Assembly (NCBI GenBank): GCA_038065615.1
Contig: JBBTQQ010000008.1
Location: forward strand, 10,658 to 74,657
Direction: 5' to 3'
DNA length: 64,000 nt
Origin: Patescibacteria group bacterium
Lineage (GTDB): Bacteria > Patescibacteriota > Doudnabacteria > UBA920 > VMFF01
How positions within the stretch are numbered: the first letter of the stretch is position 1; each line of letters begins with the position of its first letter. The notes beneath the pieces were generated by a model. That model was not told the DNA's origin and did no database searches. It saw only the letters and a list, made by a program, of their open reading frames with translations. Shown one piece after another: positions 10,246 through 16,580 of this stretch. The position numbers and the translations under genes were made by a program.

Positions 10246-10301
10246 AAATCAAATATTCTTTTAGATGGTTTTTCCATAAATTTAAATTATAAATTTTATA
10301 T

Positions 10302-10997
10302 ATGGCTGAATATAGAGACGAAGTTCCGTTTAACGATCTTGAGACTACCGGCAAACAAGGTAAGTATTTTGAGGCAAAAGAATTGGTCCAAGATCCTGAT
10401 TTGATAGTGAAGGAAGCAAGAACAAAGTGGGGTATGTTTGAAACAAAAGGAGTACATCCTTTAAATGATTTGGAGCGCATAAAGGAAGATCTCGCTATAG
10501 TCAAAGACAATTTTGCAGAATTTATTCCTGAAACAAATTTAGTTGTAGGGAAGAACCAAAAGGGAAAAGAAGTTGTATACATAGTTCAGCATAAAATACA
10601 TGGACTGGAATTAAAAGATGCTAAACCAGATGAGGAGACCATATCTCAACTAAGGATTTTTTTTGAAGCTGTTGTAGTGGCATATATTAAAAATTTGTAC
10701 TATCCTAAAAATTCTCAAGAACCTTCTTCGATTTTTCCGGACATTAAAGGATGGAATTTTATAGTAGGCAGAGATAATAAAATTGGTGGACAAGAAGGCC
10801 GTCTATATTTCGTAGATACGTACCCCGTAGAAGGTTCTACTGTCAGCTATTTTTTGGAAGAGTATATACCTAGTATTGTTAGACCAACTTTTCCTGAATG
10901 GTGTCATCCTTTGATCGACGAGTTTAGGTTAAAGGCTACTAAAAGGTTAGAAGAATATATAAAAGAGAAGGACGACCAAATTCCCAAAGTGATCTGA
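10302..10997 (+). CDS. Hypothetical protein (231 aa)
   Basis: Clean ORF, typical composition, no recognisable motifs. Confidence 0.55.
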   Translation: MAEYRDEVPFNDLETTGKQGKYFEAKELVQDPDLIVKEARTKWGMFETKGVHPLNDLERIKEDLAIVKDNFAEFIPETNLVVGKNQKGKEVVYIVQHKIHGLELKDAKPDEETISQLRIFFEAVVVAYIKNLYYPKNSQEPSSIFPDIKGWNFIVGRDNKIGGQEGRLYFVDTYPVEGSTVSYFLEEYIPSIVRPTFPEWCHPLIDEFRLKATKRLEEYIKEKDDQIPKVI

Positions 10998-11148
10998 AGT
11001 TTAGTTCCATTCCAACATCGTCTCATAATCCCAGATAAAAATACTATTAATGACCACGGGTGTCATCCATAGTTCAGCTGACATTGAACAAATGACCAAA
11101 ATAGTTGATGTCTCACATTTATCAATTAATTCAAAGGTTTTAACATAA

Positions 11149-11670
11149 ATGAAACTCCTCAAAACAATAAACCCTGAAAACGTTTCTGAAGAAGAAGTTA
11201 ATAAATACTCTATTCGCGAAGCAGCTCGCGCCTTGGTTATAGACAATCAAGGTCATATTGCAATACTTCATGTTTCAAAAGCCGGCTATTACAAAATCCC
11301 GGGTGGTGGTATTGAGGGGGAGGAGAATAAAGAAGTTGCGCTCAGAAGAGAATGCATGGAAGAAATAGGTTGTGATGTAGATATACTTGGAGAAGTTGGG
11401 ATGATTCTTGAATACAGAAAGTTTTCAAGCGAAAAACAGGTATCTTACTGCTACATCGCTAAACTAAAAGGTAAAAAAGGTAAACCAAGCTTTACTGATG
11501 AAGAATCAAACAATAGTTTTGAAGAACTTTGGTTGCCTTACAACGAAGCAATTATGCTTTTCCATGAGAACAAAACTACTGACTTTGAAGGAAGCAAATA
11601 CATTGTTGAAAGAGACAAAACCTTCTTAAAAGAAGCCAAGAATACATACCCAAACCTTTTTAATATATAA
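11149..11670 (+). CDS. NUDIX hydrolase
   Basis: Nudix box GGGIEGEENKEVALRRECMEEIG. Confidence 0.8.
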   Translation: MKLLKTINPENVSEEEVNKYSIREAARALVIDNQGHIAILHVSKAGYYKIPGGGIEGEENKEVALRRECMEEIGCDVDILGEVGMILEYRKFSSEKQVSYCYIAKLKGKKGKPSFTDEESNNSFEELWLPYNEAIMLFHENKTTDFEGSKYIVERDKTFLKEAKNTYPNLFNI

Positions 11671-11675
11671 TAACC

Positions 11676-11848
11676 CTAGGTATATAAAAGAGTCCAAAAA
11701 GCCTAATAAAAAGAGTGTTTCAGAAGCAGGAGGCAAAGGTGCTTCCTTAGGAGAAATGACCAACGCAAAAATGCCGGTTCCACCGGGATTCGTTGTTCTT
11801 TCTTCTGTTTTCAATCGTTTCCTAGAAGAAACAGATTTAGACAGGTTC
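11676..11848 (+). pseudogene. Degenerate duplicate of the 5' end of the PPDK_N ATP-grasp gene (copy of 13848-14019), start codon mutated ATG to AGG
   Basis: About 170 bp at roughly 90% identity to the start of gene 13850-14785. Antisense ORFs 11626-11814 and 13831-14052 share the identical peptide EARTTNPGGTGIFALVISPKEAPLPPASETLFLL because of this DNA repeat. Confidence 0.6.
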
Positions 11849-11869
11849 GGAGTCCGAGGAATATAATTT

Positions 11870-12274
11870 ATGAATGAAGAAAAAAATACAATCGGTTGGC
11901 TTCTTTACGATATGATAAGTAAAAGAATCCTGTTGCATCGAAGGGATCACGAAGCTAAAGAGAGTCCTGACTGTTGGGATTGCTTTGGTGGCAAAGTAGA
12001 AAATGGAGAAACTGCGTACGAAGGATTTTTAAGAGAACTTTGCGAGGAGCTAGGAATAACCGTCGATAAAAACAAGGTAACAGAGTTGGCTTTAGCCAAT
12101 GCGGGGACATTATATTTCATACCATTTTCTATGAAAGATACGTGCAAGCTTCGACTAGGAGAAGGTGCTGGGTTTGCTTGGTTATCTATTGACTACGCAC
12201 TTCGACTTGATGATATTACAGACTACGCCAAAAAGATTATAGTAATTTTCCAAGCCAGCAAGTCAAAGTTTTGA
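11870..12274 (+). CDS. NUDIX hydrolase
   Basis: Nudix box GGKVENGETAYEGFLRELCEELG. Confidence 0.75.
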   Translation: MNEEKNTIGWLLYDMISKRILLHRRDHEAKESPDCWDCFGGKVENGETAYEGFLRELCEELGITVDKNKVTELALANAGTLYFIPFSMKDTCKLRLGEGAGFAWLSIDYALRLDDITDYAKKIIVIFQASKSKF

Positions 12275-12322
12275 TATTATTGAGCCAATATTTATCAAGA
12301 ATAATACAGTAAGCCCAAAGGT

Positions 12323-13804
12323 ATGAAGAACCACTATTTTAAAACAGAGCTTGTCAAAATGGGCAAATGGGAAACGCCCCCTTTAGACTATGAGACATGG
12401 AATGGTCAAAATACAAACGTCCATTTCAAAAAATACTTTGGACTTCAAAAAGGCATACTTAATATTTATGACTTCAAGGAAGGTTACTCACATGTTTATG
12501 CCCCTAAAAGCTATTTAAAATCATTATTCGCGTATATTCGTGCTAATACTGCTAAAGATTACAAGTTTTTGGATAGAAAACTTAAAGCTTTTTATCCTTT
12601 AGTACAGAAATCAAAGCTTATAGTAAAGAAGGTAAAAACTAACGACCTTAGAGATATAACAAACGAAGAGCTGATCAAACGATACCAGACCATAAGGGAA
12701 CGTGTTCAACGCATCGCAATTTTTGATCAATTTGGTTGGCTGGGAGAAGAATATTGGACTCCTGTTATGGAGTATGTTTTAGTTAAAAAGCTTAGTTTGT
12801 TAAAAGGTAGCTCGTTGTATAATAAAATACTTTTCGCACTAACTAAGCCAGAAATGAAATCAACGACCTTGACTGAGCGACAGGCAGTTATTTTAGAGGC
12901 ACTGAAAATTAAACTAAACAAATCTACGGTCGTGAGATCTTCGCAGCAATTAGCAAAAAAATGGGGTTGGTTGCCCGTTTTTAATTTTGGAACAGCATGG
13001 GGTGCTAGTTACTATAATGAGGAGCTAAGTAATCAAGTAAAGATTAAACAAAGTGTTTTGCTTGTACAGCATAGTGTTTTAAAAAATTACACAAGAACGA
13101 GGAACCAAGAAATCACTAATATCGTGAAGCATCATGCCATCAAAAAGAAAGACCTCCAGATATTTGTTGACTTTGGACTGGCATTAGATACAAGAAACGA
13201 AGCAGAATATTTTGTAAGTTATTGTGGTTTTCATTTAATTCCTATTTACGCAGAGATAGCACGACGTTTTTCTTTGTCTATTCCTGAATTAAGGAAATTT
13301 ACTGAGCAGGAGCTTATTGATACCTTGAAAGGCATAACTACCACAAAAGCTATTCTATCTTCTCGCAAAAAGTTTTTTACTTCTGGTTATGATGAAAAAA
13401 TGGAAAAAAGAATCAATTATAGCGCTCAAGAATCTGAAAGGCTTTTCAAATTTGTTCAAACCCATGCTAAGTCTTTGCAAGGAGCAGAAGGTAGCAAGGG
13501 CGTCTGTGCAAGTCCAGGCAAAGCTATTGGCAAGGCTAGAATTGTTCCTTTCCCAAAAGACAATTACAAAGTAAAGACTGGGGATATACTCATAACACAC
13601 GCCACAACAGTTGACTATTTGCCTGCAATGAAGAAAGCTAGCGCAATAATTACAGAGGTGGGTGGGTTGACTTGTCATGCCGCTGTAGTTTCGCGAGAGT
13701 TTGGTATTCCGTGTATAGTGGCTTTACCAAATGCCATGAAAATGTTTAAAGACGGTGTATTGATTGAAGTGAATGCAGACAATGGTACAGTTAAGAAAGT
13801 TTAA
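12323..13804 (+). CDS. PEP-utilizing-enzyme mobile (phosphohistidine swivel) domain protein with unknown N-terminal domain
   Basis: C-terminal GDILITHATTVDYLPAMKKASAIITEVGGLTCHAAVVSREFGIPCIV matches the PEP-utilizers His domain. The ~350-aa N-terminus is uncharacterised. Confidence 0.75.
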   Translation: MKNHYFKTELVKMGKWETPPLDYETWNGQNTNVHFKKYFGLQKGILNIYDFKEGYSHVYAPKSYLKSLFAYIRANTAKDYKFLDRKLKAFYPLVQKSKLIVKKVKTNDLRDITNEELIKRYQTIRERVQRIAIFDQFGWLGEEYWTPVMEYVLVKKLSLLKGSSLYNKILFALTKPEMKSTTLTERQAVILEALKIKLNKSTVVRSSQQLAKKWGWLPVFNFGTAWGASYYNEELSNQVKIKQSVLLVQHSVLKNYTRTRNQEITNIVKHHAIKKKDLQIFVDFGLALDTRNEAEYFVSYCGFHLIPIYAEIARRFSLSIPELRKFTEQELIDTLKGITTTKAILSSRKKFFTSGYDEKMEKRINYSAQESERLFKFVQTHAKSLQGAEGSKGVCASPGKAIGKARIVPFPKDNYKVKTGDILITHATTVDYLPAMKKASAIITEVGGLTCHAAVVSREFGIPCIVALPNAMKMFKDGVLIEVNADNGTVKKV

Positions 13805-13849
13805 ATGTATAATTAAAAGACTTTTCCGTGTTATAGTCTTAATAACCCT

Positions 13850-14785
13850 ATGTATATAAAAGAATTCAAAAAGCTTAATAAAAAGAGTGTTTCAGAAGCA
13901 GGAGGCAAGGGTGCTTCCTTGGGAGAAATGACTAATGCAAAAATGCCGGTTCCACCCGGATTCGTTGTTCTTGCTTCTGCTTTCAATCGTTTCCTAGAAG
14001 AAACAGATTTAGATACTGAAATAGAAGCATTGTTTAAAAAGGTTAAACACAATGATATTAATTCAGTTGAAAGAGCATCGGTTGAAATTAGACAGCTAAT
14101 CTTAGAAGCTACGATGCCAAAAGATCTTCAACAAGATATTCTAAAATCTTTTAAAGCGTTAAAAGCAACATATGTTGCAGTAAGATCATCAGCAACCGCA
14201 GAAGACTCTAAAACTGCTTCCTGGGCAGGGGAGTTAGAGACATACTTAAACGTTACTGAAAAAAACGTTATTGCAATGGTTAAAAAATGCTGGTCGTCTT
14301 TGTTTACTCCAAGGGCGATTTTTTATCGCTATGAAAAGAAATTAAACAAAAAGGTAGTTTCTGTCGCGGTTGTTGTTCAAACAATGGTTCAATCAGAAGT
14401 TGCTGGTATTAGTTTTACAGTTCATCCTGTAACCAAAGATTATAACCAGATGGTCATTGAAGCAGGCTTTGGTTTAGGGGAAGCAATTGTTTCTGGATCT
14501 GTTACTCCTGATACATACGTTGTACACAAAAAAGATTTTTCAATCTTGGATATAAACATATCTGAACAATCAATGATGATTGTAAAATCAGGAAACAGGA
14601 ATTTAAACAAAAAGCTTTCTAAAAAAGACGGCGGTAAACAAAAACTTTCAGGGAAACAAATAGTTGAGCTTGCAAAGATATGTAAGAACATAGAAAAACA
14701 CTATAAACATCCACAAGACATAGAGTGGGCATATACAAACAACAAGTTCTATATAACTCAATCAAGACCGATTACAACACTTTAA
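13850..14785 (+). CDS. Pyruvate phosphate dikinase / PEP synthase N-terminal ATP-grasp (PEP/pyruvate-binding) domain protein, stand-alone
   Basis: AGGKGASLGEM...VAVRSSATAEDS...SWAGELETY and the rest match the PPDK_N/PpsA N-terminal nucleotide-binding domain. No swivel or TIM-barrel domain in the same ORF. Confidence 0.8.
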   Translation: MYIKEFKKLNKKSVSEAGGKGASLGEMTNAKMPVPPGFVVLASAFNRFLEETDLDTEIEALFKKVKHNDINSVERASVEIRQLILEATMPKDLQQDILKSFKALKATYVAVRSSATAEDSKTASWAGELETYLNVTEKNVIAMVKKCWSSLFTPRAIFYRYEKKLNKKVVSVAVVVQTMVQSEVAGISFTVHPVTKDYNQMVIEAGFGLGEAIVSGSVTPDTYVVHKKDFSILDINISEQSMMIVKSGNRNLNKKLSKKDGGKQKLSGKQIVELAKICKNIEKHYKHPQDIEWAYTNNKFYITQSRPITTL

Positions 14786-14789
14786 CAAC

Positions 14790-16100
14790 ATGCCAAAAGA
14801 GAAAAGCGCCAAACAGATTGAATTGGAGGTTTTAAAATACAAAGACTGGGAATGGTGGGCAGAGCGTCCTTTTGGTGCTTTTGTTATGTCACTCTTCAGA
14901 GAGGGGCAAAAAAGAGAATACATACGCAAATTTGGTGTTGACGCAGAGTGGCCAGTCTTACTCTTTCAAAAAGGCACTTTTTACAAAAGTGAAACAGTTT
15001 GGAATATCTTTGCAAAACAGTTAGAAAAATATTTAGCAAAAGGTGGAACGGTTTTTAGCATAACAAAATCATGTGAAAGATTTTTAGTTAATAACAAAAA
15101 ATTCGTTAGAGATTTAAACAAATCTAAACTCCCACCTCAAAAGAAACTCCAGAAGCTTTATGAACCCCTAACGTTAATTATGAGTTATATTTGGTTAACT
15201 CACGGTTTTGAACATGTTTACAAAAAACGTCTTTACAAAGAAGTTCCAAAATATATAAAAGGGGATATAGACAAATACATTGGTGATATTAGCTTTCCTA
15301 TTAAAAAGAACGCGCACCATCACTTAGAAGAAGCTTTAAGAAGCAAACAGCCTTTGGAACAAATTCGAGAACGATGGGGCTGGATTAAAGCTCGAGATGG
15401 TTTTTCTGATATATTCACAATCAAAGAATTAGCTTTAGAGCGTAAGAAACTAAAGGGAACAAAACACTCGACCTTTAAAAAAATAAGGGTTCCTAAAGCT
15501 TTACAATCACTAGCAAAGGTATCCCAAGAGCTAGTGTATTTAAGAACGTTAAGAACTGACGTGCTTTATGAATTAATGTATTTAGCTCGTCCGACACTTA
15601 ATGAGGTTGCAAAGCTATACAAAATTCCTTTCAAAAGCTTAAGAGACTACGCTGTTTGGGATTTGGTTCAAGGAAAACTTAAAAAATACCTATATACTCC
15701 TGATTTGTCAGCAATCAGTGTTGGTAAGGACTTTGTATTATTAGATCATCCGATATTGAAAGACAGATACGGGAAAATGGATTCCATAAAAGGGTTAATA
15801 GCAAACAAAGGATTTGCTGTCGGTAGAGCAAAGATAGTTAAGATTGCTCACGAGATAGGAAAGGTTAAAAAAGGGGATATACTATTTGCACCAACAACCT
15901 TCCCTTCCTTTATCATGGGAATGAAAAGAGCGGCAGCTTTTGTTACTGACGAAGGGGGTATTACATCACACGCAGCGATTACAGCTAGAGAAATGAAAAA
16001 ACCTTGCGTTATAGGGACACAAATTGGAACAAAAGTCTTCAAAGATGGTGATTTAATAGAAGTAGATGCAAATAACGGGATTGTTAGAAAGGTGAAATAA
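14790..16100 (+). CDS. PEP-utilizing-enzyme mobile (swivel) domain protein, paralog of 12323-13804
   Basis: C-terminal GDILFAPTTFPSFIMGMKRAAAFVTDEGGITSHAAITAREMKKPCVIG. The N-terminal domain has the same architecture as the upstream paralog. Confidence 0.75.
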   Translation: MPKEKSAKQIELEVLKYKDWEWWAERPFGAFVMSLFREGQKREYIRKFGVDAEWPVLLFQKGTFYKSETVWNIFAKQLEKYLAKGGTVFSITKSCERFLVNNKKFVRDLNKSKLPPQKKLQKLYEPLTLIMSYIWLTHGFEHVYKKRLYKEVPKYIKGDIDKYIGDISFPIKKNAHHHLEEALRSKQPLEQIRERWGWIKARDGFSDIFTIKELALERKKLKGTKHSTFKKIRVPKALQSLAKVSQELVYLRTLRTDVLYELMYLARPTLNEVAKLYKIPFKSLRDYAVWDLVQGKLKKYLYTPDLSAISVGKDFVLLDHPILKDRYGKMDSIKGLIANKGFAVGRAKIVKIAHEIGKVKKGDILFAPTTFPSFIMGMKRAAAFVTDEGGITSHAAITAREMKKPCVIGTQIGTKVFKDGDLIEVDANNGIVRKVK

Positions 16101-16552
16101 TGACAATAACCCTTTGTGGCAGCATTGCTTTCATTGATCAGATGTATGAACTAAAAGAAAAGCTCGAAATTCTAGGTTTTGATGTTTTAATCCCTCCTGA
16201 CAAAGTTCCTAACAAAGAAAGGGAGTTAATCAACGTAAAAGATTATTACGCTTCTAAAAAGAAAGCAATGGCAGCTAACAATCATGCTTGGGTTACAGAG
16301 GGTAATCTAGATAACAGAATCAGGGATCACTTTGATAAGGTGACCAAAGGAGATGCGATTCTTGTTGCTAACTATGATAAAAACGGGATTAAATGGTATG
16401 TTGGTCCAAATAGTTTGGTTGAAATGGGTGTTGCTTTTTACTTAAACAAAAAGATATATCTATTAAATCCAGTTCCTGATGTTGCTTACAAAGAAGAGAT
16501 TCTGGGAATGAGACCAATAGTCATTGAAAATGATTTAAGTAGGATAAAATAA
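16100..16552 (+). CDS. Nucleoside 2-deoxyribosyltransferase-like protein (tentative)
   Basis: 150 aa with a NSLVEMGVAFYL segment resembling the NDT catalytic-Glu region. TAATG overlap with the upstream gene. Confidence 0.4.
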   Translation: MTITLCGSIAFIDQMYELKEKLEILGFDVLIPPDKVPNKERELINVKDYYASKKKAMAANNHAWVTEGNLDNRIRDHFDKVTKGDAILVANYDKNGIKWYVGPNSLVEMGVAFYLNKKIYLLNPVPDVAYKEEILGMRPIVIENDLSRIK

Positions 16553-16580
16553 AACCGCAGGTAGTCTGCGGTTTTAATAT
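16553..16580. terminator. Bidirectional rho-independent terminator AACCGCAG-gtagt-CTGCGGTT flanked by T/A runs
   Basis: Lies between convergent genes. 8-bp stem and U-tracts on both strands. Confidence 0.6.

What the first reader, a model, noticed from the sequence alone, without database searches (positions are those of the whole stretch)
12323..16552. Split PEP-synthase / rifampin-phosphotransferase-like module: two paralogous His-swivel proteins flanking one stand-alone ATP-grasp
In PpsA/PPDK and rifampin phosphotransferase, the ATP-grasp (PPDK_N), phosphohistidine swivel and substrate domains sit in one polypeptide. Here they are split into three consecutive genes. X1-swivel (493 aa) and X2-swivel (436 aa) each have a ~350-aa uncharacterised N-terminal domain with similar architecture and a canonical PEP-utilizer His domain (GG[LI]T[CS]HAA). 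They flank a single PPDK_N-only gene. There is no TIM-barrel PEP/pyruvate domain, so the phosphoryl acceptor is probably not pyruvate. The layout suggests one ATP-grasp loading two alternative swivel/substrate-binding partners. The X2 gene is translationally coupled (TAATG) to a nucleoside-2-deoxyribosyltransferase-like gene, and two NUDIX genes sit just upstream. Together this hints at nucleotide/nucleoside or small-molecule (antibiotic-like) phosphorylation. The system appears uncharacterised.
Basis: partly seen in the sequence, partly recalled or inferred. Interest (0 to 1): 0.65.

Follow-up and report, generated by a model that had tools for sequence, protein, structure and literature searches.

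The report
Shared-ATP-module small-molecule kinase set
Three adjacent genes in an ultra-small (Patescibacteria) bacterium encode a split, rifampin-phosphotransferase-like kinase in which one ATP-binding protein probably charges two different substrate-binding partners, and relatives carry up to nine such partners per ATP module, an arrangement no paper I searched describes.

Summary
X1 (12323-13804) and X2 (14790-16100) each carry a C-terminal phosphohistidine swivel domain. They flank a stand-alone ATP-grasp gene, G (13850-14785). No PEP/pyruvate TIM barrel is present.

This is not a broken ppsA. Confident AlphaFold models of both X proteins match rifampin phosphotransferase across its rifampin-binding and swivel domains. 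The module is therefore a two-component small-molecule dikinase. That kind is already characterised in PpsAB, CreHI and HpeHI, so the split itself is not new.

What looks new:
- The X1 and X2 families are known only from Patescibacteria/DPANN MAGs.
- In 31 loci, 125 X-swivel genes form co-directional runs of up to nine, never with more than one G per locus.
- Natural fusions exist, from G-X-swivel up to G-(X-swivel)x3.
- In a 93%-identical strain the locus content differs. The window's X2 is a recombinant whose crossover lies at the catalytic-His codons.

The substrates are unknown. The NUDIX and deoxyribosyltransferase-like neighbours are not conserved partners. Recurrent nucleotidyltransferase, flavin-pathway and phosphatase neighbours hint weakly at phosphorylation of cofactors or other metabolites.

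The parts
12323..13804 (+). X1, acceptor component 1 (493 aa). The N-terminal ~385 aa has the fold of the RPH rifampin-binding domain. The C-terminal phosphohistidine swivel spans aa 392-493, with catalytic His452 at codon 13676-13678.
   Evidence: ORF. Pfam PEP-utilizers 418-488. AF2 model pLDDT 93.7. Foldseek best hits are RPH-Lm 5hv2/5fbt/5fbu, E 2e-12 to 6e-12, about 470-570 aligned columns, TMq up to 0.57. 93 homologue clusters, all named ones from Patescibacteria/DPANN MAGs. T450, C451 and H452 are invariant.
13850..14785 (+). G, stand-alone ATP-grasp (PPDK_N) component, 311 aa. It is the ATP-binding module presumed to pyrophosphorylate the swivel His of X1 and X2.
   Evidence: Pfam PPDK_N E 3.8e-102. 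Best PDB sequence hits are PEP synthase 8a8e (238 bits), RPH ATP-grasp 5hv6 (204 bits) and 9goj (167 bits). K20, R112 and T131 align with RPH-Lm Lys22, Arg117 and Thr136, which are needed for the first phosphotransfer (PMC4844700).
14790..16100 (+). X2, acceptor component 2 (436 aa). The N-terminal ~330 aa has the RPH rifampin-binding-like fold. The swivel spans aa 334-435, with His394 at codon 15969-15971. From about 15978 the 3' end derives from a different X gene, so this gene is a recombinant.
   Evidence: ORF. Pfam. AF2 pLDDT 92.1. Foldseek RPH-Lm E 2e-13. 107 homologue clusters in CPR/DPANN. Fused G-X2-swivel proteins P0326, P0340 and P0431. Crossover mapped.
11668..11841 (+). Truncated pseudo-copy of the 5' end of G (aa 2-55; the start codon ATG is mutated to AGG). 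It is the upstream arm of a 174-nt direct repeat (94% identical) with 13840-14013. The repeat brackets the NUDIX2 + X1 block.
   Evidence: tblastn 92.6% over 54 aa. The repeat finder. Sequence read directly.
11870..12274 (+). NUDIX hydrolase gene 2 (134 aa), inside the repeat-bracketed block together with X1. Not a conserved partner of the system.
   Evidence: Pfam NUDIX E 2.2e-10. The segment is absent from sister strain L003.
16100..16552 (+). D, a 150-aa protein of a widespread ~147-aa family with no Pfam model, distantly nucleoside-2-deoxyribosyltransferase-like. It is overlap-coupled (TAATG) to the last X gene. It marks the downstream boundary of the X-gene run in this clade and is not a general partner.
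   Evidence: The context elsewhere lacks X genes.
16550..16576 (.). Bidirectional hairpin terminator-like site that closes the X1-G-X2-D transcription unit.
   Evidence: 12-bp stem, 5 G-C pairs.

Best explanation
The locus encodes a two-component 'water dikinase' for small molecules, of the RPH / PpsAB / HpeHI type, with one shared ATP module and two acceptor modules.

Proposed cycle:
1. G binds ATP.
2. The C-terminal swivel domain of X1 or X2 docks on G, and its histidine (His452 or His394) attacks the beta-phosphate.
3. The gamma-phosphate is released as Pi, leaving AMP and a phosphohistidine.
4. The swivel domain swings back onto its own N-terminal domain, which has the RPH rifampin-binding fold, and phosphorylates the small molecule bound there.

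X1 and X2 belong to different, separately conserved families, so they should phosphorylate two different compounds. In Patescibacteria and DPANN archaea this forms a toolbox: up to nine or more different acceptor modules are served by a single G. Gene content turns over by recombination across the conserved swivel-coding sequence.

The physiological role is the least certain part. My leading idea is phosphorylation to trap or activate scavenged metabolites or cofactor precursors, with some products passed on to adjacent nucleotidyltransferases or phosphatases.

What is shown: domain identities, folds, conserved catalytic residues, gene runs, fusions and the recombination event. What is inferred: the phosphotransfer route, the sharing of G, and the role.
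For: Domains and folds
- G is a complete PPDK_N domain. It keeps the Lys22, Arg117 and Thr136 equivalents of RPH-Lm.
- The X1 and X2 models (pLDDT 93.7 and 92.1) match RPH-Lm over the rifampin-binding and swivel domains, E about 1e-12 to 1e-13.
- The catalytic His motif is invariant or nearly invariant.
- Invariant Arg/acid motifs lie at RPH-like spacing from the His. X1 has R291-N-E293, 161 aa before His452. RPH has R666-E667, 159 aa before H825. This equivalence is inferred from spacing only.

Precedent
- The same split is biochemically characterised in HpeHI, PpsAB and CreHI, including the His requirement and H-only phosphotransfer (PMC12167813).

Sharing of G
- 125 X-swivel genes in 31 loci are all co-directional, with at most one G per locus and up to 9 X genes per 20 kb.
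- The N-domains fall into 42 clusters.
- Fusions: G-X2-swivel of 722-753 aa, G-(X-swivel)x2 of 1207-1313 aa, G-(X-swivel)x3 of 1794 aa, and (X-swivel)x2-G of 1301 aa.
- G lies immediately upstream of X2 in W, L001, L003 and L015.

Interchangeable swivel
- The window's X2 is a natural chimera with its crossover at the His codons. The identical protein occurs on 6 contigs.

Role hints
- A small CTP_transf_like nucleotidyltransferase adjoins X genes in L001, L006, L029 and L030, and is fused to an X-swivel in L005.
- In L025 a flavokinase (Pfam-mapped), a lumazine-synthase domain and a lumazine-binding (riboflavin-synthase-type) domain lie inside the X-gene run; the last two are assigned to L025 genes by length, not by a per-gene scan.
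- Of the 54 genes embedded in X-gene runs, four hit His_Phos_1 and one each hits HAD, NUDIX and NAPRTase.
- X1 and X2 orthologues are well conserved across phyla and across the two domains (mean column identity 59% and 52%). This argues for stable, common substrates.
Against: - There is no biochemistry for any member, and no complex prediction could be run.
- The N-domain similarity to RPH is structural only. Sequence profiles align just the swivel.
- Seventeen of the 31 loci show no G within the DNA fetched, so 'one G per genome' is not proven.
- No accessory gene is conserved across loci, so the role inference rests on a minority of loci.
- The nucleotidyltransferase-adjacent X genes are not one tight family.
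- L001 and L030 come from the same assembly and are not independent evidence.
- Residue -2 from the His is Thr, as in PEP synthase and PPDK, not Met as reported for RPH and the phenol kinases. The relationship to the characterised two-component enzymes is therefore distant.
Confidence: 0.6

Rival explanations
1. Same chemistry, different purpose. The X modules are a battery of RPH-like enzymes that inactivate xenobiotics or antibiotics. This would protect an episymbiont from compounds made by its host or neighbours.
For: RPH, an antibiotic-resistance kinase, is the closest solved structure. The tandem paralogues are highly diverse (42 clusters). Gene content differs between strains sharing about 93% nucleotide identity. 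A CPR resistome survey reported rph-like hits (PMC8651080).
Against: X1 and X2 form well-conserved orthologous families across many CPR phyla and DPANN archaea, which is unlike arms-race genes. Embedded genes are mostly anabolic or cofactor-related: riboflavin genes, NAPRTase and nucleotidyltransferases. NCBIfam RPH models score far below cut-off (62 vs 999 bits for X1). Stogios et al. note that most RPH-superfamily clades probably act on other molecules.
Confidence: 0.2
2. Only G and X2 form the working enzyme. X1 arrived recently with the repeat-bracketed block. It is either an orphan passenger or depends on a G-type partner that this genome lacks.
For: G-X2 adjacency and G-X2 fusions are common. 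NUDIX2 and X1 lie between 174-nt direct repeats that include a dead copy of the G start. The sister strain L003 has no X1.
Against: X1 is intact, and its catalytic motif and all family-invariant residues are present. In other genomes X1-type genes sit in the same runs with a single G (L001, L027, L029, L030). Swivel domains are similar enough to recombine. The duplicated G start suggests the donor locus had X1 directly upstream of a near-identical G.
Confidence: 0.08
3. The X proteins are not small-molecule kinases. They are phosphorelay or regulatory proteins, or they phosphorylate a macromolecule, as glucan water dikinase or PTS enzyme I do.
For: One relative carries an N-terminal HTH_3 DNA-binding domain (L020). 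A stand-alone 111-aa swivel protein exists in L029. Swivel domains act in protein phosphorelays in the PTS.
Against: The N-domains have the fold of a known small-molecule-binding domain. No carbohydrate-binding or HPr-like partners appear in the loci. The N-termini show no obvious signal peptide or transmembrane segment by eye, which no prediction tool checked. All characterised proteins with this architecture phosphorylate small molecules.
Confidence: 0.07
4. The three genes are fragments of a single decayed ppsA (PEP synthase) or rph gene.
For: Public records name relatives 'pyruvate, water dikinase' or 'PEP synthase'. The top NCBIfam hits of G and the swivels are PEP synthase models.
Against: The order X-swivel / grasp / X-swivel cannot be re-joined into grasp-swivel-TIM. 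No TIM-barrel domain is present. All hits fall far below the equivalog cut-offs (109 vs 598 bits). The same separate gene sizes are conserved in about 200 homologue clusters. Both models are compact and confident. The only pseudogene is the 174-nt G fragment at 11668-11841.
Confidence: 0.01

Closest known systems
Two-component small-molecule dikinases HpeHI, CreHI and PpsAB (phenylphosphate synthase)
   Same: The split is the same. A separate ATP-grasp protein of about 310-390 aa works with a protein carrying an RPH rifampin-binding-like domain and a C-terminal His swivel. The genes are adjacent. The expected chemistry is ATP + substrate + H2O giving AMP + Pi + substrate-phosphate, via beta-phosphohistidine (PMC12167813).
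   Different: The known systems pair one H component with one I component, act on phenolics in aromatic catabolism, and have H components of about 70 kDa that share about 45% identity. Here the acceptor proteins are 436-493 aa. No N-domain sequence similarity to PRK08296-type models is detectable. Thr rather than Met lies 2 residues before the His. Several to nine different acceptor genes accompany one grasp gene, and the families are known only from CPR/DPANN.
Rifampin phosphotransferase (RPH-Lm; PDB 5FBS/5FBT/5FBU/5HV1)
   Same: It is the best structural match for both X proteins over the rifampin-binding and swivel domains. G aligns end to end with the RPH ATP-grasp and keeps Lys22, Arg117 and Thr136. 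Fused relatives have the RPH domain order.
   Different: RPH is a single 867-aa chain specific for rifamycins. The window's proteins are split, share only 12-15% identity in the structural alignment, and score far below the NCBIfam RPH cut-offs.
PEP synthase / pyruvate phosphate dikinase
   Same: These are the closest sequence relatives of both G (8a8e, 238 bits) and the swivel domains (79-86 bits), including the GG-x-T-[CS]-H motif with Thr at position -2.
   Different: There is no PEP/pyruvate TIM-barrel domain. The swivel is C-terminal to a helical substrate domain rather than central. The module therefore cannot make PEP.
Prodiginine ligases PigC / RedH / HapC
   Same: They belong to the same superfamily and have the same domain order (grasp, substrate domain, swivel). 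NCBIfam hits cover G and the swivels.
   Different: They are single-chain enzymes of a secondary-metabolite pathway that use phosphorylation to drive a condensation. No such pathway genes occur here.
PTS enzyme I feeding many sugar-specific branches (analogy only)
   Same: One energy-coupling module feeds many substrate-specific phosphocarrier modules through a phosphohistidine swivel domain.
   Different: The phosphoryl donor there is PEP, not ATP. The acceptors are proteins (HPr, EIIA), and the system is coupled to transport.

Membership tests
Two-component small-molecule dikinases (PpsAB/CreHI/HpeHI type, RPH superfamily) | The ATP-grasp (PPDK_N) domain is on its own polypeptide. | tested here: met
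   G is 311 aa and PPDK_N covers aa 16-310, E 3.8e-102. It aligns to 9goj (167 bits) and to the RPH grasp domain 5hv6 (204 bits).
Two-component small-molecule dikinases (PpsAB/CreHI/HpeHI type, RPH superfamily) | The partner protein has a rifampin-binding-domain-like fold followed by a C-terminal swivel domain. | tested here: met
   AF2 models have pLDDT 93.7 and 92.1. Foldseek gives RPH-Lm as best hit, E 1e-12 to 1e-13, aligned over both domains.
Two-component small-molecule dikinases (PpsAB/CreHI/HpeHI type, RPH superfamily) | A catalytic His lies in a GG-x-x-x-H motif within about 50 residues of the C-terminus. | tested here: met
   X1 His452 of 493 is invariant. X2 His394 of 436 is at least 90% conserved.
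Two-component small-molecule dikinases (PpsAB/CreHI/HpeHI type, RPH superfamily) | The ATP-grasp residues needed for the first phosphotransfer are present (RPH-Lm Lys22, Arg117, Thr136). | tested here: met
   G K20, R112 and T131 align with them. Their roles are from PMC4844700.
Two-component small-molecule dikinases (PpsAB/CreHI/HpeHI type, RPH superfamily) | Sequence-level relatedness of the substrate domain to PpsA/CreH/HpeH, which share about 45% identity with one another. | tested here: not met
   NCBIfam PRK08296-type and RPH models match only the swivel and at most about 60 aa before it. The X1 profile against the PDB aligns the swivel only. I assumed, but did not verify, that PRK08296 represents PpsA-like proteins.
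Two-component small-molecule dikinases (PpsAB/CreHI/HpeHI type, RPH superfamily) | ATP-dependent phosphorylation of a small molecule, yielding AMP and Pi. | not testable with these tools
   Needs enzyme assays.
PEP synthase (pyruvate, water dikinase) | A C-terminal PEP/pyruvate-binding TIM barrel (PEP-utilizers_C), in the domain order grasp-swivel-TIM. | tested here: not met
   No PF02896 hit on any of the three proteins. Equivalog scores are 109, 349 and 96 bits against cut-offs of 598 to 740.
Rifampin phosphotransferase (RPH) | A single-chain three-domain enzyme that scores above the NCBIfam RIF_Ptrans_rph cut-off. | tested here: not met
   The module is split into separate genes. Scores are 283 (G), 62 (X1) and 47 (X2) bits against a cut-off of 999.
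Rifampin phosphotransferase (RPH) | The Arg666-Glu667(-Lys670) phosphotransfer motif in the substrate domain. | tested here: inconclusive
   Invariant motifs R291-N-E293 (X1) and R252-T-L-R255-T-D257 (X2) lie at similar spacing from the His: 161 and 139-142 aa, against 159 aa in RPH. No residue-level structural alignment was available.
Nucleoside 2-deoxyribosyltransferase superfamily (for the 150-aa gene at 16100-16552) | A match to Pfam PF05014 above the gathering score. | tested here: inconclusive
   E 0.034, 14.7 bits against a cut-off of 28.8. 22 of 27 homologues give weak hits, best E 4e-4. A profile search of the PDB found nothing.

The most novel reading that the evidence does not exclude
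Patescibacteria and DPANN archaea have a modular 'hub-and-spoke' ATP-driven phosphorylation system. One ATP-grasp hub energises a changeable set of dozens of substrate-specific X-swivel spokes, and these take over small-molecule kinase functions such as vitamin, cofactor or nucleoside salvage in reduced genomes. Spoke genes are gained, lost and shuffled by homologous recombination across the conserved phosphohistidine-motif coding sequence. The chimeric X2 and the duplicated G start in this window are direct examples of that process.
Probability: 0.3. Interest if true: 0.8.

Novelty: new variant of a known kind. Interest (0 to 1): 0.6.

Why it matters
1. It would extend two-component dikinases beyond one-to-one phenol kinases of aromatic catabolism. 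Here a shared energy module would serve many acceptor modules, an organisation no paper in my searches describes for ATP-dependent small-molecule kinases.

2. It points to a large, lineage-restricted and wholly uncharacterised enzyme radiation in CPR/DPANN organisms. How these organisms acquire and activate metabolites is a central open question, and the substrates of these families could reveal what they take from hosts.

3. These genes are annotated in public records as 'PEP synthase' or 'pyruvate, water dikinase'. That can create false gluconeogenesis calls in metabolic reconstructions. Jaffe et al. already needed manual cut-offs for PEP synthase in CPR genomes.

4. The natural chimera at the His motif suggests the swivel is a portable docking module, which is useful for enzyme engineering.

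Tried and rejected
- Broken ppsA: rejected. The domain order cannot be re-joined, no TIM barrel is present, and the gene sizes are conserved.
- Anti-phage defence system: no PADLOC hit for X1, G, X2, D or the 231-aa ORF.
- Nucleoside/nucleotide substrate inferred from the NUDIX and D neighbours: not supported, because those neighbours are not conserved.
- A conserved accessory subunit like PpsC: none found. All-vs-all clustering of 130 neighbouring genes gave only clusters of three or fewer loci.
- Sequence-profile link from the X N-domains to RPH or any PDB entry: only the swivel aligns.
- D-family profile against the PDB: nothing.
- Whether the nucleotidyltransferase-adjacent X genes form one family: they do not, sharing only 22-24% identity.
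- Literature searches for a description of the CPR/DPANN gene runs found none.

Full report
**1.

The window has three co-directional ORFs: X1 (12323-13804, 493 aa), G (13850-14785, 311 aa) and X2 (14790-16100, 436 aa).
- G is a complete PPDK_N ATP-grasp domain (E 3.8e-102).
- X1 and X2 each have a single Pfam hit, the PEP-utilizers mobile (swivel) domain at the C-terminus (E 5e-23 and 7.5e-25). The first 330-390 residues of each have no Pfam or NCBIfam family.
- No PEP-utilizers_C TIM barrel is present. All PEP-synthase and RPH equivalog models score far below their cut-offs.
- A hairpin terminator-like site follows that gene.
- tblastn finds no other swivel or grasp gene in the 64-kb window, apart from a 54-codon fragment of G.

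**2. What the proteins are**

X1 and X2 share 46% identity, but only in the 102-aa swivel. Their N-domains give a collinear but weak profile match (hhalign E 2.7e-4, probability 42%).

AlphaFold2 models built on 39-sequence alignments are confident (pLDDT 93.7 and 92.1). For both, Foldseek against the PDB returns rifampin phosphotransferase of Listeria as the best match, E 1e-12 to 1e-13. The alignment covers about 470-570 columns spanning the rifampin-binding and swivel domains. PEP synthase, PPDK, pyruvate kinase and PTS enzyme I match only the swivel.

G aligns end to end with the RPH ATP-grasp. It keeps K20, R112 and T131, which correspond to Lys22, Arg117 and Thr136. Mutagenesis showed those residues are needed for the first phosphotransfer in RPH-Lm (PMC4844700).

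The catalytic His is invariant in the X1 family (H452) and nearly invariant in the X2 family (H394). Both N-domains contain invariant Arg/acid motifs at about the same distance from the His as the essential Arg666-Glu667 of RPH. This equivalence is inferred from spacing, not from an alignment.

**3. The split is already known**

Dexter et al. (J Biol Chem 2025, PMC12167813) characterised HpeHI. HpeI is a stand-alone ATP-grasp, for which they solved a crystal structure. HpeH combines a rifampin-binding-like domain with a swivel. They group HpeHI with PpsAB (phenol) and CreHI (4-methylphenol) as a subfamily of two-component small-molecule dikinases. Their evidence includes loss of activity in the His mutant and phosphotransfer by HpeH alone.

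The mechanism I propose is taken from that precedent and from RPH:
1. G binds ATP.
2. The swivel His attacks the beta-phosphate.
3. The gamma-phosphate leaves as Pi.
4. The phospho-swivel returns to its own N-domain and phosphorylates the bound small molecule.

The 'pseudogenised ppsA' alternative is excluded.

**4. What differs from the known systems**

Homologue searches with the N-domains alone found 93 (X1) and 107 (X2) clusters. All have the same sizes. Those that carry names come from Patescibacteria/CPR phyla and from DPANN archaea (Woesearchaeota, Nanoarchaeia, Micrarchaeota).

An exhaustive profile search of 1.84 billion cluster representatives found only 299 relatives of the X2 N-domain at E<=1e-3, and 54 at E<=1e-30. 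The family is small and lineage-restricted.

In sequence, G and the swivels are closest to PEP synthase rather than to HpeI or RPH. They keep Thr two residues before the His, where RPH and the phenol kinases have Met.

**5. Gene runs and fusions**

I fetched 24 loci anchored on the X2 N-domain from GTDB species genomes and seven more through individual proteins. I called ORFs and searched them with my own HMMs.
- Across 31 sources there are 125 X-swivel genes, all on the same strand as the anchor.
- Tandem runs reach 9 genes per 20 kb (L025), with 8 each in L004, L005 and L021.
- No source contains more than one G, and 14 contain exactly one.
- The N-domains fall into 42 BLAST clusters. X2 is the commonest, by design of the search. 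X1 occurs in 8 of the 31 sources.
- Pfam-verified fusions exist:
  - G-X2-swivel: 722-753 aa
  - G-(X-swivel)x2: 1207-1313 aa
  - G-(X-swivel)x3: 1794 aa
  - (X-swivel)x2-G: 1301 aa
  - (X-swivel)x2-3 without G: several proteins

These Rosetta-stone fusions, together with the one-G-to-many-X layout, are the main evidence that one ATP module serves several acceptor modules.

**6. The locus is in flux**

L003 comes from a strain sharing about 93% nucleotide identity and has the same flanks but different content.
- Where the window has 3.6 kb (a 231-aa ORF, NUDIX1, the G fragment, NUDIX2 and X1), L003 has one trypsin-like peptidase gene.
- L003 has 4.2 kb between X2 and D that the window lacks. 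That segment holds two more X-swivel genes, a 293-aa gene that clusters with His_Phos_1-type genes, and all but the 3' end of a third X gene (355 aa).

A base-by-base comparison shows the window is 100% identical to L003's X2 up to about 15976, just past the GGITSH codons. From about 15978 it follows the 3' end of L003's last X gene and then D. The window's X2 is therefore a recombinant. Homologous recombination at the most conserved stretch, the catalytic-His motif, deleted the intervening genes. The more distant L031 keeps the 293aa-X354-D arrangement at 78-85% identity, so the long form is probably ancestral.

Separately, a 174-nt direct repeat (94% identical; 11668-11841 and 13840-14013) brackets NUDIX2 + X1. 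Its upstream arm is a dead copy of the G start, with ATG changed to AGG. This indicates that the block entered by recombination with a donor in which X1 preceded a near-identical G.

**7. Function**

No accessory gene is conserved across loci, and PADLOC finds nothing.

The D gene is at best a distant member of the nucleoside-deoxyribosyltransferase superfamily. It accompanies X genes only in this clade. The NUDIX genes lie in the strain-specific segment. The nucleoside hypothesis therefore has little support.

A Pfam census of 54 genes embedded in X-gene runs, with mapping, shows a mixed set:
- His_Phos_1 phosphatases (four hits)
- M20 peptidases
- carbamoyltransferase-like genes
- a HAD phosphatase
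- a NUDIX hydrolase
- a nicotinate phosphoribosyltransferase
- a phosphotransacetylase
- in L025, a flavokinase gene (Pfam-mapped) that overlaps the preceding X gene, followed by two genes I assign by length to the census's lumazine-binding (riboflavin-synthase-type) and lumazine-synthase hits; the second abuts the next X gene

A small cytidylyltransferase-like nucleotidyltransferase adjoins X genes in L001, L006, L029 and L030, and is fused to an X-swivel in L005. L001 and L030 also carry a flavokinase two genes further on.

Kinase plus nucleotidyltransferase plus phosphatase is the pattern of cofactor or activated-metabolite pathways. The strong conservation of each X family across phyla also fits stable metabolite substrates better than an arms race. 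I therefore favour phosphorylation to trap or activate scavenged metabolites, in line with the trapping idea Dexter et al. raise for HpeHI. My confidence in this role is only about one in three. An RPH-like detoxification battery remains a serious rival.

**8. Novelty and literature**

Searches of the paper library for these gene runs in CPR/DPANN organisms found nothing. One resistome survey merely counts rph-like hits. Jaffe et al. mention needing manual cut-offs for PEP synthase in CPR genomes.

The module is a new variant of a known kind. The chemistry and the split are known. The following appear undescribed: multiple acceptor modules per ATP module, the CPR/DPANN-restricted radiation, the multi-module fusions, and gene turnover by recombination at the His motif.

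**9. Limits**

- There is no biochemistry and no complex model.
- Structure-library searches were limited to Foldseek against the PDB.
- Genome-wide counts of G and X genes could not be made from loci of 20 kb or less.
- ORF calls in the loci are my own simple calls.
- Several MAG labels are probably binning or naming errors ('Gammaproteobacteria', 'Methanosarcinales', 'Saccharibacteria'), and I did not check them.

Noticed in passing
window 11668-11841 and 13840-14013: A 174-nt direct repeat (94% identical). The upstream copy is a truncated, start-less (ATG changed to AGG) copy of the 5' end of the ATP-grasp gene, lying between the two NUDIX genes. The repeat brackets a block of about 2 kb holding NUDIX2 and X1, like the scar of a recombinational insertion.
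   Followed up: yes
window 15976-16100 (3' end of X2): X2 is a natural chimera. Up to the GGITSH codons it is identical to the sister strain's X2. After them it matches the 3' end of a different X gene. This implies a 4.2-kb deletion by recombination at the catalytic-His motif.
   Followed up: yes
window 10248-13849 compared with L003 8138-9060: A strain-specific 3.6-kb segment (231-aa ORF, NUDIX1, G fragment, NUDIX2, X1) replaces a single trypsin-like peptidase gene in a strain sharing about 93% nucleotide identity.
   Followed up: partly
window 10302-10997 (+): A 231-aa ORF with no hit in Pfam, NCBIfam, PADLOC or PDB sequences. By eye it has a D-x-x-x-x-N ... D pattern (FPDIKGWNF ... FVDTYP) reminiscent of small-molecule kinase catalytic loops. 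This is unverified.
   Followed up: partly
window 16100-16552 (+): This gene belongs to a widespread ~147-aa family (489 homologues) that has no Pfam model and gives only sub-threshold nucleoside 2-deoxyribosyltransferase similarity. One homologue (L032) sits in an island with a true Nuc_deoxyrib_tr gene plus APH, HAD and His_Phos genes.
   Followed up: partly
window 11838-11867 (+): The best sigma-70-like promoter match in the region (11 of 12 positions: TAGACA, 18 nt, TATAAT) lies exactly at the junction between the G fragment and NUDIX2. The inserted block may therefore carry its own promoter.
   Followed up: no
L025 6735-8592 (Moranbacteria GW2011_GWC2_40_12): A flavokinase gene fused to a PD-(D/E)XK domain (Pfam-mapped) lies inside a run of 9 X-swivel genes and overlaps the X gene before it. 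The next two genes are, by length only, the census's lumazine-binding (riboflavin-synthase-type) and lumazine-synthase hits; the second abuts the following X gene.
   Followed up: partly
L005 6557-8485; also L001, L006, L029, L030: A cytidylyltransferase/FAD_syn-like nucleotidyltransferase is fused to the N-terminus of an X-swivel protein (643 aa). Small stand-alone versions adjoin X genes in four other loci.
   Followed up: partly
L020 5374-7119; L029 11594-11929: An X-swivel protein with an N-terminal XRE-type HTH_3 domain (582 aa), and a stand-alone 111-aa swivel-only protein. Both are unexplained variants of the module.
   Followed up: no
public annotations of P0017, P0022, P0089, P0112, P0166 and others: X-swivel proteins are named 'phosphoenolpyruvate synthase / pyruvate phosphate dikinase' or 'pyruvate, water dikinase' in source databases although they lack the pyruvate-binding domain. 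This is a likely source of false PEP-synthase calls in CPR/DPANN metabolic reconstructions.
   Followed up: partly
L014 3848-7786; P0446; P0398: Giant multi-module polypeptides: G-(X-swivel)x2 of 1313 aa, G-(X-swivel)x3 of 1794 aa, and (X-swivel)x2-G of 1301 aa. L014 contains runs of N, so assembly quality there was not checked.
   Followed up: partly
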